From NCBI RefSeq assembly GCF_009914755.1, contig NC_060940.1: DNA of 64,000 bases, one strand, 5' to 3'. The translations under genes and the position numbers were made by a program. The notes under the pieces are model-generated. The model had not been told where the DNA came from, made no database searches, and saw only the letters and a list, made by a program, of their open reading frames with translations. Source of the DNA: the human T2T-CHM13v2.0 reference genome, Homo sapiens. The stretch's first letter is position 1; each line of letters opens with the position of its first letter. Below, in pieces: positions 6,425-56,060 of this stretch.

Positions 6425-6702
6425 GATAAACCTCTCATAGCTGGGAATACGAGGTAGAAGGTGGATTCCAACCCACGAAGGGTTAAACCCTCTCACAGCT
6501 GGGAATATGAGGTAGGTGGATTCCAACCCACGAAGGGTTAAACCCTCTCATAGCTGGGAATATGAGGTAGAAGGCGGATGCCAACCCACGAAGGGTTAAA
6601 CCCTCTCATAGCTGGGAATATGAGGTAGAAGGTGGATTCCAACCCACGAAGGGTTAAACCCTCTCATAGCTGGGAATATGAGGTGGAAAGTGGATTCCAA
6701 CC
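6425..6702. repeat. About 59-bp minisatellite, 4.7 copies
   Basis: Unit CTCTCATAGCTGGGAATATGAGGTAGAAGGTGGATTCCAACCCACGAAGGGTTAAACC. Confidence 0.93.
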
Positions 6703-31899: not shown

Positions 31900-33391
31900 T
31901 TTGGGACTCTGCGTCAAGGAACAATGAGCGCTGCACCCTAATACATCAGTACTTACAGCTCCAAAGTGAATCAATCTGTCCTGTTGAAACCATTAAGAGG
32001 ACAAGGATTAGGAAAGGTGGGTCCATGAAACACGACCAGAGGTTTTCTCAAGACAAGACTCACGATGACGCCCTCCCGCTCAAACTCAAAGCAAGAAACT
32101 CAGTTTAAATGTTCAATCAAGATATATTTTGGCCACAAGCATAGTTCTACTTTAAAGCAATTTCTGGAAACTTTTACAACTACAGGAATGCCTCTCATGC
32201 TAAGAAGGGATGCCCAGGACATGGGAATGCCACTCCCCACAAGTCTCACTGCACAAACATCACGGAGGCTGGCAGCTTGAGCACCTCCCACCTCAGCTGC
32301 AGAGCTGAGGGACAGGGAAGGCAGGAAGACCGGAGGAAGGAAAGCTGCCTCTAGTCCTGACTATGTGTACAAACCTGAGTGAGGGCTGGACCCTCACAAG
32401 TAAGATGGAGACAATCGCTCCACCAGCCCCAGCAACACTCAGAGAGAAAGGAAGGTGCGCTACAGCCCCGAAGGTGGTGGGCGTCTTCTGAACCCCACGT
32501 CCTCCAGGCCCACGGCCACTGTTTTCTACCTGCTGCATCACGTCACGCGTGGTACACCTTCCGACACATGAGAACACACTGCAGGGTGTTCCTCCGACTC
32601 TCAACACACGCCTCAAAGAGAGATAATCATGGGTCACCTTCAGCCCCATCGACCGAGGGATCAAGGACACCACCCAGGCCCACAGAGGCGCTCGGACACC
32701 GTCACTGGAGACAATCTTAAAATGCTCTGTCAGAATGCTGCACTTGACTCTGAAAAGCCTCTCTGATGAGGATTCAGATAGCAAATAGTAAATGGGTACT
32801 TCAAGGAACAGAGAAGGTACAGAATAAAAGGAAATGCAAATACAATTTTTAGCTAAGGAAGCTATAGTTCATGTGACTTCACTCCTTAAGCTGAAAACCA
32901 AACCACCCACCCTCTTAGACATCAGGGAACTATAGAATTTGCTGCTACTACTGCTGCTGCTGCTACAAGCCTGCAAGGGGTGTGCAAAAGAGAGTAGATA
33001 AGGGCTCCAACAGAACCCCTGCCATGGTCTATGGTCCTTCCTGCCACGTCCTACAGGAGCCCAGGAGCTCTGGCTATGCCTGTCAACCCGGCCATGCAGG
33101 TGACTGAAACAACAGCCTGCCATGATGTAAGTGGTCCTGGCTAAAAGGGGCTGGAGAGAGGGCTTTAGAGAAGCATGTTGGGTTCAAAAGCCTAGAGTGC
33201 TGAACAAGTCACAGCAAACAAATAAAACCCTAAAACCCAGGACCAACTGAAGGGGGATCTATCCCCCAGCCACCACTCCACACTGCTGTCCCTTGTCTAT
33301 GTGGAATCTGTCCCCCACACCAACTTCCTCACATTGCACACACTTTACCAGCCAACAGCTGCTCACGGCTGGAAGCACGAAGGATCCACAG

Positions 33392-36799: not shown

Positions 36800-38400
36800 A
36801 GAGAAAGACCAGTGTTTGGGCAGCAAGGCATCAACCTGGAGGGTACGGACGCCGGAGCACGCGGCTACTCAGGCCGAACCCCGACCCGGACCCGGCACGC
36901 GGCCTCGGCGAGGGCGGGCGGGAGTGTCCTCCTCCGGGACAGCCGGACTCCCGCCGACTTCTGGGCGGCGGGGAGGGCTCCAGGCCCGGCTCTCCCGGGC
37001 CCCCGCACGCGATGCGCGGCCCCTGCAGCTGCTCCGTGCCCCGAGACGCGCCCGAGGCCTCGGACCTCCAAGCGGCCACCGCGCCGCCAGTCCCGCTGCC
37101 CAGGGACACCCCGGCCCCAGCTCCCCGCGCGCCCACCCCCTCGGTCCCACGCGCGTCAGCCACCCGCGCCCCCCGCCGCTTCCGGGTCCCGCCCGCCCGG
37201 CCTACCGCGGCCTAGCCCGCCCCGGAGCCCGGCCCTACTCACCCGCGCGCGGTGGTGGCGGGACCCCGGGCCCGGCTCCCGGAGCGGCGCGGCGCGGCCC
37301 GGCCCATGCGCTCAGCGGCAGCGCGGCGGGCGGGACCCGGCGGGGGCGCGGCCCGGGGCGGCCCCCATCTCGGCGGCTGCGGCTCGGCGGCCCGGAGGCG
37401 GACGCGGGGCAGGCCGCGGGGGCGCCGCAGGGGCCCAGCCGCCAGCTCCCACCCGCCCGCTCCGCGTGGACGCGGCTCCGGGCCGACTCCGGCCGGCTCT
37501 GGCGGCGGCAGCGGCCACGATCGCCTCCCGAGCCAGAGCCCGAGCCAGAGCGCCGAAGCCCAGGCCCGAGCGCCCCCGCCGGCGGCGTCCGGAAGTGCGG
37601 GGGCGGGGCCGGGGCGCGGGGACGAGGTGAGAGCGCGGGGCGGGGCCTCAACACGGGGCGGGGCCGGCAGCGCGGGGACGAGGTAAAGGGTGTGGGGCGG
37701 GGCTTCAGGCGCGGGGCGGGGCTGAAAGCGCGAGGATAAAGTGAGGAGCGTGGGGCGGGGCCGACAGCGAGGGGACAGGTGAGGAGCGCGGGGCGGGGCC
37801 GGGGCGTGGGCGGGGCCGGAAGCGAGAAGACGAGGTGAAGAGCTCGGGGCGGGGCCTCGGGCGTGGGGCGGGGACCAGGGAGTAAGGCGGGGCCCGCCTC
37901 GAGCAGAAGAGGTAAAGAGCGTGGGGCGGGGCCTCCGGCGCGGGGCGGGGCCGGAAGCGAGAAGACGAGGTGAGAAACATGGGGCGGGGTCTCTGCATGG
38001 GCGGGAGAGGGCGTGGTCAGTGCCTGCCGGGGGCGGGGCGTGCCGGGGGCGCGGTCGCGCCGTCTTCCCGAGGGGCGGTGCGGAAGCGGAGCCCGGGAGG
38101 CTTTGGCTTCCCAGAGAGCGGAGTGGGAGAGGCGGCGTTGCAGGTCCTTGGAATGGCCGCGGCCGTGGGGAGCACTGGGCGGACTGCGCGCCCCGAAGGG
38201 CGCACGTGGGGCGCAGCCCTTTTCTGCCGCCAGTACATCGGAGGGCAGTCAGGGGGCTGCAGGCCTCGGGGCTCCCTGCCCAGCCGGCCCTGGAGAGGAG
38301 GCCCTCGTGGGGACCGCCACGGCCTGCCCGCCGCCGTGAGGGAAGCAGGCTCCCAGGAGTGGGGTGGTCGGCAGGCAGGGATGGCCAGGGCCCTTGGAAG
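36800..38400. promoter_or_regulatory. AXIN1: AXIN1 CpG-island promoter with more than 12 GC boxes and ETS sites
   Basis: Very high GC and CpG density; repeated GGGGCGGGG between 37598 and 38040; CCGGAAG motifs. Confidence 0.9.
37243..37600 (-). other. AXIN1: AXIN1 non-coding exon 1 (5'UTR); TSS approximate
   Basis: Donor CGCGG|gtgagt at 37243 inside the CpG island; ETS motif CCGGAAGT at about 37589 next to the GC-box array. Confidence 0.85.
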
Positions 38401-43975: not shown

Positions 43976-45199
43976 TCACCCACGTCGCCTGCGCCCAGCC
44001 CCGTCCAGCAGACCTGACAGTCCCCACATCCCCGCTGGCCTCCAGGGGTCAAGGGTCAGGACGCCAAGGCCAACAGGAAAGCACTGGCAACAGGGCGGGG
44101 GCCTGGCCAGCCAGGCGGCCCAGAGGCGGTCCCCTCCATCCCAGGGTACTGTCCACACCTCCCAGTGTCCTGAGGGGAGTCCTCCTGCACTGCCTTTCTG
44201 AAGAGTTCTGACCCCAGGGTGTCCAGGGGCTGGGACTGGGGCCAGGTGGATACCAGGATGTGGTCAAGTAGGCCTGCCTGGAGGGTCCGGCCGCAGGGGC
44301 TGGGGAAGTAGGAGGGGAGGGCGGCCACCACTTCCCAACTCGGGAGCTGCTGACATCAGGGGACTGTTGGGCCTGGCCTGGCACCTGCCTCCCAGGAGAC
44401 CTGAGTGCCCATCCTTGTCTTGGGCCAGCCTGTAGCCCTAGGCAAAGCAGGCACCTCCTTGTGCCAGTGTCCCCCTGGGCAAAGTGATCGTCCTGACCTG
44501 GCCTCACAGCCCCAGAGGTCCGTGTGTGACCCTCTCTGACAGGCCGGGTGGCGGGATGGAGCCCACGGCTGGCCATGGACCAGGTCTGGTGTCCCAGGCA
44601 CATTGTGAGCACAGGGCAGGGCCTGCTGGCCTCCCCCAACCTCAGTGCTGTTTTCCCAAAAAGAGGTGGCATCCAAGTGCAGGGGCCATGCCCCGAGGGG
44701 CCTCGCGCTGACTTCGGGAAGTAGCAGGTGACGTCCCACCTCCCTGGGCAGCCTCAGGCCGCTTCCTGTCCTTGTTGGGGGGACTCCTGCCCCTGCCACA
44801 CCGACCACAGTCCTTGTCCCTGCTGTTCCCTCACCTGAACGCCCTTCCCTGCCCTGACGGCCTCCATCCCACACGCCTCTCCGGGCGCTGCCGCCCCCCC
44901 GTTGGTGCTCATCTGTCCTTCTGCCCACTATCCCCAGCGGCCCCGATACCTGCACACCCCAGTGCCCAGCGGTTCCCCCTCGAGCTGGCAAGGGGACATT
45001 AAATGGGAGGTGAGGAAGTGCGGCCCCCAGCGGGCAGCTGCCTTTGCCCCGGCCCACCTGCGCCCCCGCCCACCTGTGCCCTCCGCCGCCTCCCTCTGCT
45101 TGGCTGTCCCAAGATGTCTCTCTCCACTGCCTAGGAACCCTGAGGCCGCGGCCAAGTTCTGAGCGTGTGACTGTGTGTGCTGGGCCCCAGGCCCCTTTG

Positions 45200-46530
45200 T
45201 CGCCGCGGCGTCTGTCGTGGCAAACAAAAGTGAACCGGATTAGCCACAGTGGATTAAAAGATTTACGTCTCAGAGTTTACCTAATAACCTAACAATCGTG
45301 TCAACGGGAGCTTTGAACCCCCAGGGCGCGCCTGCCAGGCCAACTGAGAGCTCAAGGCCTCTGTGGGCAGCAGGACGTGGTCGGGGGGAGGAGACGCAGC
45401 CACGGCTGTCCTCACACCCAGCTCGGCCCCTGCGGGCTCCTCTGGGCAGAACCTGGGGAAGGCACGGCCTCTAGCAGGAGGTGGAGGCCTTTGAAAGGGT
45501 GCAGGTGTTGGGACCAGGTACCCGGCCCAGGCCCCCAGCCGCGTCCACACACGTCGCACACGGCAGCAAGGACGCAAGCAGTGTGGAGGTGGCCGCGTCG
45601 GCGACGTATGGGCCCCGTGGTGCTGCGGTGCACGACCTCTGTGCTGTCACCCCACAGTGTCCGCTCCTGCACGTACACGCGTGCACGCGCACACACGTGC
45701 ACACGCACACACACACAAGCACGCCCCGCTTTGATCTCTAAAGGAGAGTCCATTGACAAGCTCTTAATCGCAGCTGCCCTTGCAGGGCCTGTCCCTGAAG
45801 TCCCGAGTAATGGGATTTGGCGCTTCTGATCCATCGGGCTGGCCGCTTCCCGTGTCATAGGTGGACATTTTTTTTCTTTATATCGCTTCTGTTTCTTTTT
45901 TTTTTTTCTCCTCGAAAAAATGCTGCTTAAACGGCACCGACTTGACATGGCTTGTCTCCTAACCTTGGAGTGGCGGCCGGGACGCCGGCCTGGATCAGTC
46001 GGGGGTCTTTGATGCCGCCTCCATGTGAAACCTGACGTGGAAGACCCACCGGGGCGGTTTTGGGGTCCGAGGTCCGTCAGGATTCATCCTGCCTCACCCT
46101 GCTCCCTTTGTCTCTTCCCCTGACCCTTCCTCGGGACACCCGGAGAGGGTCTGAGGGTGAGGGTGCGGGCGCTGCGTGTGGGCTTGCACTCGAGGGTGGG
46201 GTGGGCCGAGGGCAGGGCCGCAGCCGCGAGAACAATGGGCAGAGGAGGCGCGTCCACCTGTCCGCCCGGCCGCCTGCCCGGCTTACCTCACCTGCCTGGC
46301 TCCGTGTGCCTGCTCACGCCCCACCGTCCCGCTGTCCGCCATGATGGGCTTGGCCGTCCGTCCGAGCACTTTCAGCCACTCTGGGAAGCAGGTCCCTGCT
46401 CTTGGCCACTGTGTGGCTGGGAGGCAGAAGCGTGACTCTGGGCTGCAGCTCGGGCTCCTGCCGCCGATTGGCTGAGGCAGGGACCAGATGACGGGCCTCA
46501 GAACCCTATGGTAGCCATGGCAACCAGCCC
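45200..46530. promoter_or_regulatory. Candidate CpG-rich, repeat-free enhancer/promoter (TCF/LEF, homeodomain, NF-Y and RFX motifs)
   Basis: CTTTGA(A/T) at 45311, 45489, 45729 and 46007; GGATTA at 45237 and 45251; ATTGG at 46467; GTAGCCATGGCAAC at 46511-46524. Confidence 0.55.
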
Positions 46531-47694: not shown

Positions 47695-47871
47695 CTGGGC
47701 GCCGGGGGTCTCGGGCCGCGGCTGCTCCCCCAGGACTCTGGGCGCCGGGGGTCTCGGGCCGCGGCTGCTCCCCCAGGACTCTGGGCGCCGGGGGTCTCGG
47801 GCCGCGGCTGCTCCCCCAGGACTCTGGGCGCCGGGGGTCTCGGGCCGCGGCTGCTCCCCCAGGACTCTGGG
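47695..47871. repeat. 43-bp perfect tandem repeat, 4 copies
   Basis: CTGGGCGCCGGGGGTCTCGGGCCGCGGCTGCTCCCCCAGGACT at 47695, 47738, 47781 and 47824. Confidence 0.95.

Positions 47872-52546: not shown

Positions 52547-56060
<3,514 letters not shown>

What the first reader, a model, noticed from the sequence alone, without database searches (positions are those of the whole stretch)
45230..46020. Cluster of four co-oriented TCF/LEF sites plus homeodomain sites: possible Wnt-feedback enhancer for AXIN1
Seen: CTTTGAA at 45311 and 45489, GCTTTGATC at 45728, and CTTTGATGCCGCC at 46007, where the HMG site abuts a GCCGCC C-clamp helper-like site. All four lie within about 700 bp on one strand. Also present are paired GGATTA (K50 homeodomain: OTX/PITX/CRX), GATTTACG (posterior Hox/Cdx-like), TGTCAA/TTGACA (TALE-like) and CCTTTGT (SOX-like). 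Established: AXIN2 is the classic TCF-driven feedback gene, with sites in its promoter and intron 1, while AXIN1 is regarded as constitutive. Inference: this block would lie in intron 1 of the candidate upstream exon, mirroring the AXIN2 layout, and could give AXIN1 tissue-specific Wnt inducibility.
Basis: partly seen in the sequence, partly recalled or inferred. Interest (0 to 1): 0.7.

Follow-up and report, generated by a model that had tools for sequence, protein, structure and literature searches.

The report
TCF-bound enhancer upstream of AXIN1
A CpG-rich stretch 8 kb upstream of the human AXIN1 gene carries four clustered TCF/LEF sites, overlaps weak TCF7L2 binding peaks in one liver-tumour cell line, and is likely a tissue-restricted enhancer that would let Wnt signalling tune AXIN1 in some cell types only.

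Summary
The motifs are real. Four of the window's 11 CTTTGAW sites lie within 700 bp on one strand (scan P 0.0015; 0 of 3000 shuffles; at most 2 per 700 bp in 200 kb of neighbouring chr16). The block is single-copy, sits in an orphan CpG island 7.6-8.4 kb upstream of the annotated AXIN1 start, and matches AXIN2's promoter island in site density, not in sequence. Published TCF7L2 ChIP-seq has two weak, HepG2-only peaks that convert onto sites 1-3; the other five lines, HCT116 included, lack them. Against a general Wnt element: no beta-catenin or TCF7 peak here in hepatoblastoma organoids or in stem-cell endoderm and neuromesodermal lists, and AXIN1 is not in those Wnt-regulated gene lists. The 'intron 1' layout rests on an unannotated exon. 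Best reading: a cell-type-restricted TCF enhancer with OTX-, FOXA- and TALE-type sites, probably acting on AXIN1. Wnt inducibility, target gene and conservation are untested. Chick Axin1 is reported in Wnt1/3a brain domains, which keeps a developmental feedback loop open. It is a new member of a known kind and was not found in my literature searches.

The parts
44800..46500 (.). Orphan CpG island between AXIN1 and the 3' end of MRPL28 (GC 0.64, CpG obs/exp 0.67; 0.77 over 45230-46020)
   Evidence: single copy in the genome apart from a short CA/TG repeat
45311..45318 (+). TCF/LEF site 1, CTTTGAAC
   Evidence: inside HepG2 peak 1
45489..45495 (+). TCF/LEF site 2, CTTTGAA (not followed by C/G)
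   Evidence: inside HepG2 peak 1
45728..45736 (+). TCF/LEF site 3, GCTTTGATC, the only SCTTTGATS in the window
   Evidence: inside HepG2 peak 2
46007..46019 (+). TCF/LEF site 4, CTTTGATG, with abutting GCCGCC
   Evidence: outside both HepG2 peaks at offset 365126
45971..45977 (-). Full GCCGCCR C-clamp helper, 30 bp from site 4
   Evidence: motif as given in PMC13273282
45125..45574 (.). HepG2-only TCF7L2 ChIP-seq peak 1 (hg19 chr16:410,251-410,700; 40 reads, score 4.53)
   Evidence: converted with the anchor
45575..45874 (.). HepG2-only TCF7L2 ChIP-seq peak 2 (hg19 chr16:410,701-411,000; 21 reads, score 3.89)
45194..45304 (.). Dense co-factor block: SOX-like CCTTTGT 45194, FOXA-like GCAAACA 45220, K50 homeodomain GGATTA 45237 and 45251 (2 of the 9 non-Alu copies in the window), Hox/Cdx-like GATTTACG 45260, TALE-like TGTCAA 45299
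   Evidence: factor names are recalled consensus motifs, no binding data
45753..45776 (.). TALE-like TTGACA 45753, TAAT core 45765 and E-box CAGCTG 45771 just after site 3; a further TTGACA at 45942
45670..45712 (.). Short CA/TG-type tandem repeat directly before site 3
46286..46524 (-). Promoter-like end of the island: RFX X-box 46511-46524, CCAAT 46467, ATG 46342 and two donor-like sites at 46291 and 46286; unannotated, untested

Best explanation
The block is a cluster of four TCF/LEF sites in an orphan CpG island that overlaps weak TCF7L2 peaks in HepG2 cells, and it is likely a tissue-restricted enhancer that would add a Wnt-sensitive input to the otherwise constitutive AXIN1 promoter 8 kb away. 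Shown: the motifs, their clustering, the island, TCF7L2 peaks in 1 of 6 lines. Inferred: lineage factors (FOXA in liver-type cells, OTX/PITX- and TALE-type homeodomain proteins in embryonic tissue) open the island; TCF7L2 or LEF1 then binds sites 1-4 and, with beta-catenin, raises AXIN1 transcription modestly, a second and weaker negative feedback beside AXIN2. In most cells the element would be closed, which fits AXIN1's reputation as Wnt-independent.
For: Cluster beyond chance. Density like the AXIN2 island: 5 CTTTGAW in 808 bp there, 4 in 703 bp here. No CTTTGWW at all between the AXIN1 ATG (31899) and 45311, so this is the nearest upstream TCF cluster. HepG2 TCF7L2 peaks cover sites 1-3, are the first 2 of 6 HepG2-only peaks in the first Mb of chr16, are not in the amplified-region list, and a 791-bp block would touch such a peak 0.7% of the time. 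A FOXA-like site lies in peak 1 and over half of HepG2-specific TCF7L2 sites are reported co-bound by FOXA2 and HNF4A (PMC3491396). Chick Axin1 is reported in midbrain and posterior forebrain in a pattern like Wnt1/3/3A (PMC2757023). AXIN1 mRNA rose on GSK3 inhibition in HCT116 and SW480 (PMC13217735). AXIN1 has the nearest annotated start (hub table).
Against: The peaks are weak (40 and 21 reads; the floor in the rows read is 20) and absent from HCT116, HEK293, HeLa, MCF7 and PANC1 by the list's definition. Over all six lines about 5% of such blocks would touch some peak (my arithmetic from 116,270 peaks), more in CpG islands. None of 1,415 Wnt peaks of hepatoblastoma organoids is here (30 of 34 chr16 rows seen, in ascending order; AXIN1 and MRPL28 absent from the gene lists). 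No row named AXIN1 or MRPL28 at this place among beta-catenin peaks of stem-cell endoderm (750, 4,518, 18,609, and 1,830 held of a cut sheet) or neuromesodermal cells (6,138), TCF7 peaks (95, 11,244, 21,182, 2,402) or 24,838 held TCF7L1 peaks, and AXIN1 is in none of the held Wnt-regulated gene lists (PMC10123531). The CHIR rise was also seen in SW480, where AXIN2 did not rise, and in HCT116, which lacks the peak. Mouse Axin1 is described as ubiquitous. A 2024 review lists no TCF among AXIN1's regulators. No reporter, contact or conservation data.
Confidence: 0.45

Rival explanations
1. An enhancer or open island driven by lineage factors, where TCF7L2 binds passively or as a repressor and Wnt changes nothing.
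For: Only TCF7L2, not beta-catenin, is seen here; beta-catenin lists are blank; peaks are weak; CpG islands attract ChIP signal (established knowledge).
Against: Four canonical sites beyond chance, and the peaks centre on them, not on the GC-richer 46.2-46.5 kb end.
Confidence: 0.2
2. A TCF-responsive enhancer whose target is another gene (MRPL28, PGAP6, LOC100134368, NME4, DECR2, or PDIA2/ARHGDIG/RGS11).
For: The region is gene-dense (hub table); the MRPL28 start is only about 10 kb away; AXIN1 is missing from Wnt-regulated lists.
Against: MRPL28 is missing from the same lists; AXIN1 is nearest and is a pathway gene.
Confidence: 0.13
3. The island is an alternative AXIN1 promoter (RFX and CCAAT boxes) with a first exon ending near 46290, so the TCF sites are intronic elements as in AXIN2; one donor would add 44 residues in frame.
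For: RFX X-box at 46511, CCAAT at 46467, ATG at 46342, donor-like sites at 46291 and 46286; island status.
Against: 0 of 9 RefSeq transcripts start here (hub table); the second donor puts the ATG out of frame; the open frame before the annotated ATG is shared with the annotated exon 1 and so says nothing about this exon; no convincing sequence likeness to the AXIN2 island.
Confidence: 0.12
4. A chance cluster without function; the HepG2 peaks are near-threshold noise.
For: The scan reads many windows and motifs; at the local rate about 13 such clusters per Gb of GC-rich DNA are expected; negative peak lists.
Against: About 0.0008 clusters are expected per 64 kb; independent ChIP peaks and a CpG island coincide with it.
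Confidence: 0.1

Closest known systems
AXIN2 promoter/intron 1 Wnt-responsive elements
   Same: Several CTTTGAW sites packed in a CpG island 5' of the first coding exon of an Axin gene: 5 in 808 bp against 4 in 703 bp.
   Different: AXIN2's sites lie in its main promoter island, 2.1-3.0 kb from the ATG, on both strands, and are bound by beta-catenin broadly; these lie in a separate island 13.4-14.1 kb from the ATG, on one strand, and are missing from most lists. No convincing sequence homology. The name AXIN2 for C17:66.43 Mb is recalled; the call shows a 59% identical paralogue.
HepG2-specific TCF7L2/FOXA2/HNF4A enhancers (Frietze et al. 2012, PMC3491396)
   Same: The block is listed among the HepG2-only TCF7L2 peaks and has a FOXA-like site in peak 1.
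   Different: FOXA2 and HNF4A binding here were not checked; no good HNF4 motif; the homeodomain sites point to embryonic rather than hepatocyte use (inference).
TCF HMG plus C-clamp helper elements
   Same: GCCG abuts site 4 and a GCCGCCR lies 30 bp away.
   Different: Not above chance in this GC-rich block; site 4 is outside the peaks.
AXIN1 intronic enhancers at rs9921222/rs10794639 bound by GATA4 and ER-alpha
   Same: Distal, tissue-specific control of AXIN1.
   Different: Other factors; seen only as a reference title and a review mention; their intronic position is recalled.

Membership tests
Wnt-responsive element (TCF/beta-catenin enhancer) | Clustered CTTTGWW sites above chance | tested here: met
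Wnt-responsive element (TCF/beta-catenin enhancer) | TCF/LEF occupancy in cells | tested here: met
   Weak TCF7L2 peaks in HepG2 only, 1 of 6 lines; coordinate conversion anchored on one side by a search; TCF7 and TCF7L1 lists blank
Wnt-responsive element (TCF/beta-catenin enhancer) | Beta-catenin occupancy | tested here: inconclusive
   Not found in organoid, endoderm or neuromesodermal lists; no list from HepG2 or neural tissue was reachable
Wnt-responsive element (TCF/beta-catenin enhancer) | Site-dependent Wnt induction in a reporter | not testable with these tools
   needs the bench
Wnt-responsive element (TCF/beta-catenin enhancer) | Linked gene responds to Wnt | tested here: inconclusive
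   AXIN1 up on CHIR in two colon lines, regional in chick brain, absent from stem-cell Wnt-regulated lists
Wnt-responsive element (TCF/beta-catenin enhancer) | Conservation of the sites | not testable with these tools
   no other vertebrate genome is held
AXIN2-type promoter/intron 1 arrangement | Sites lie at the promoter and in intron 1 of an expressed transcript | tested here: not met
   By the hub's RefSeq table the block is 7.6-8.4 kb upstream of exon 1; the upstream exon is only a prediction
AXIN2-type promoter/intron 1 arrangement | Sequence homology to the AXIN2 island | tested here: inconclusive
   Best blastn E 0.042; best local score 36 against a maximum of 33 in 30 shuffles; the best island match is one GC-rich 16-mer near 46270, outside the TCF block
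CpG island | GC over 55%, CpG obs/exp over 0.65, over 500 bp (criteria recalled) | tested here: met
   1701 bp, GC 0.638, obs/exp 0.67

The most novel reading that the evidence does not exclude
AXIN1 is not purely constitutive: it has its own OTX/TCF-coded feedback enhancer (perhaps with an RFX-driven upstream promoter) that makes it a direct Wnt target in embryonic midbrain/diencephalon and liver-lineage cells, a retained form of the ancestral Axin feedback loop usually credited to AXIN2 alone.
Probability: 0.25. Interest if true: 0.68.

Novelty: new member of a known kind. Interest (0 to 1): 0.42.

Why it matters
[quoted passage not shown] A mapped TCF element would make the question 'is AXIN1 a context-specific Wnt target?' testable with one reporter and one CRISPRi experiment, could explain the regional chick expression, and gives a place to look for non-coding variants or methylation changes. 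If it fails those tests it is one more weakly bound TCF7L2 site.

Tried and rejected
Repeat or RNA gene: no other genomic copy beyond a 40-65 bp CA/TG repeat; Rfam gave one sub-threshold match on that repeat (mir-297, 27 bits against a cut-off of 90). Amplification artefact: the two peaks are not in the amplified-region table. Alu origin of GGATTA: 60 of 69 copies in the window are in Alu-like context, these two are not. Paralogy with AXIN2's island: not convincing. The 2006 twin study of AXIN1 methylation was not held and three papers citing it give no position, so whether its island is this one stays open. Zambanini 2022: no AXIN1 in 2 small supplementary files, which may lack peak tables, so uninformative. 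Pagella preprint: main text has AXIN1 only in a reference; its supplements are closed and may bear on the claim. Norton 2014 rat hepatoma supplement could not be searched. Guo 2021: no Axin1 in the main text, supplements not opened. The full Frietze peak file is too large to read. A coordinate-phrase search of the stem-cell tables gave zeros without a positive control and is not counted; the LEF1 and TCF7L1 neuromesodermal sheets carry no gene names and were not tested. No downstream hg19 anchor was found in print. Protein folding and microbial collections were not used: the element is non-coding and human.

Full report
Observation. All four TCF/LEF cores are at the stated places on the + strand, as are the GGATTA pair, GATTTACG and three TGTCAA/TTGACA sites; CCTTTGT is at 45194, 36 bases outside the range. 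The window has 11 CTTTGAW sites and 4 lie within 697 bp: scan probability 0.0015 on either strand, 0.0002 on one strand; for the looser CTTTGWW 0.029 and 0.0044; 0 of 3000 di- and trinucleotide shuffles of the block give four CTTTGAW. Of 7,539 patterns of the same shape, 24 rare ones form a four-copy cluster in the window; 22 fall in two overlapping groups at 6.4-6.7 and 19.6-20.3 kb that look like repeated units (not checked further), one lies in the promoter tandem repeat, and the last is CTTTGAW. In 200 kb of neighbouring chr16 (58% GC) 25 sites never exceed 2 per 700 bp. The side motifs are weaker, and the helper beside site 4 is at chance level.

Setting. The block lies in a CpG island of about 1.7 kb (GC 0.64, obs/exp 0.67), separate from the AXIN1 promoter island at 36.8-38.3 kb and the MRPL28 island near 55-56.5 kb. 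It is single-copy and holds no Rfam family. By the hub's annotation it is intergenic, 7.6-8.4 kb upstream of AXIN1 exon 1 and about 6 kb past the MRPL28 3' end. No CTTTGWW occurs between the AXIN1 ATG and site 1.

Binding data. Additional file 10 of PMC3491396 (supplement searched, one part read; main-text passages read) lists HepG2-only TCF7L2 peaks at hg19 chr16:410,251-410,700 and 410,701-411,000. Conversion: rs1805105 is given at hg19 396,264 A>G, synonymous (PMC3734069, one passage); I recall it as c.762, which is window 31138 with A on the + strand, so the offset is 365,126 and the peaks are 45125-45574 and 45575-45874, covering sites 1-3. The gene's hg38 length of 65,284 bp equals the hub's span, so no net indel lies within AXIN1. 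A peak labelled MRPL28 promoter at hg19 420,417-420,563 implies a difference of 700 bases or more further right; a 35-copy 26-bp repeat in MRPL28 intron 1 is the obvious place. Had the difference lain left of the block, the peaks would move to about 45.9-46.6 kb, still on site 4 and the island. The peaks are weak (40 and 21 reads), are 2 of 6 HepG2-only peaks in the first Mb (0.7% chance of contact), are not in amplified regions, and by definition are absent from the five other lines, though small peaks may fall under the cut-off. Across all six lines the chance of touching some peak is nearer 5% (my arithmetic).

Results against. Hepatoblastoma organoids (PMC13273282; passages, one section, supplements searched): none of 1,415 beta-catenin plus TCF7L2/LEF1 peaks is here. 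Human stem cells to endoderm and neuromesoderm (PMC10123531; passages, supplements searched by gene name, four files cut when stored): no beta-catenin, TCF7 or TCF7L1 row assigned to AXIN1 or MRPL28 at this place; the only AXIN1 rows are a SOX17 and a TCF7L1 peak in intron 2; AXIN1 is in none of the held Wnt-regulated gene lists. So the element is not a general Wnt target of the AXIN2 class.

Expression. A 2024 review (PMC10826278, section 5 read) calls AXIN1 broadly expressed and names GATA4, RUNX1, VDR, C/EBP-beta, PHB1, EGR1 and ER-alpha as regulators, not TCF. PMC13217735 (passages) reports AXIN1 mRNA induced by GSK3 inhibition in HCT116 and SW480, but SW480 did not induce AXIN2, which points to another route. 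PMC2757023 (passages) reports chick Axin1 at the midbrain-hindbrain boundary, dorsal midbrain and thalamus, like Wnt1/3/3A, and proposes feedback, while noting that mouse Axin1 is ubiquitous. That territory is largely Otx2-positive (recalled), which fits the GGATTA pair beside the TCF sites; whether chick has this element is unknown.

AXIN2 comparison. The paralogue on C17 (name recalled) has 5 CTTTGAW sites in 808 bp of its promoter island, on both strands. The likeness is one of density. Sequence likeness is not convincing: best blastn E 0.042; best local score 36 against a shuffled maximum of 33 in 30 trials; the best match inside the AXIN2 island is one GC-rich 16-mer outside the TCF block. 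The island's right end has an RFX box, a CCAAT box, an ATG at 46342 and two donor-like sites five bases apart; one would add 44 residues in frame, the other gives a short upstream frame. No annotated transcript uses it.

Mechanism. Most likely (0.45) lineage factors open the island in a few cell types, TCF binds the cluster, and beta-catenin adds a modest boost to AXIN1. Motifs, clustering, island and HepG2 peaks are shown; opening factors, beta-catenin, induction and target are inferred. Rivals: Wnt-blind binding 0.2, another target gene 0.13, alternative promoter 0.12, chance 0.1.

Novelty. Searches found no paper describing a TCF enhancer at this place; the library lacks most subscription journals, and the element may be among the 8 RefSeq enhancers that the hub did not list. 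The kind of element is well known. Interest 0.42; 0.68 if AXIN1 proves a direct, tissue-specific Wnt target through it (probability 0.25).

Noticed in passing
window 55141-56045: 26-bp repeat, 35 copies, fills MRPL28 intron 1 next to its start; probably about 30 copies longer than in hg19 (inferred).
   Followed up: partly
window 47695-47871: 43-bp GC-rich repeat, 4.1 identical copies, 1.2 kb right of the island; a likely length polymorphism near the element.
   Followed up: no
window 46286-46524: RFX X-box, CCAAT box, ATG and twin donor-like sites on the - strand; one donor is in frame with AXIN1 exon 2.
   Followed up: partly
window 31900-31980 and 37243-37596: The 81 untranslated bases of exon 2 are open in frame with the AXIN1 ATG, and the frame continues some way into annotated exon 1 before a stop, leaving room for a non-AUG N-terminal extension.
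   Followed up: partly
window 37597-37952: Array of GGGGCGGGGC-containing repeats directly upstream of the AXIN1 start, periods 18-152.
   Followed up: no
window 45868-45920: T-rich run inside the CpG island between sites 3 and 4; would disfavour nucleosomes.
   Followed up: no
window 6433-6693: Repeated unit of about 57 bp seen as a group of clustered 7-mers.
   Followed up: no
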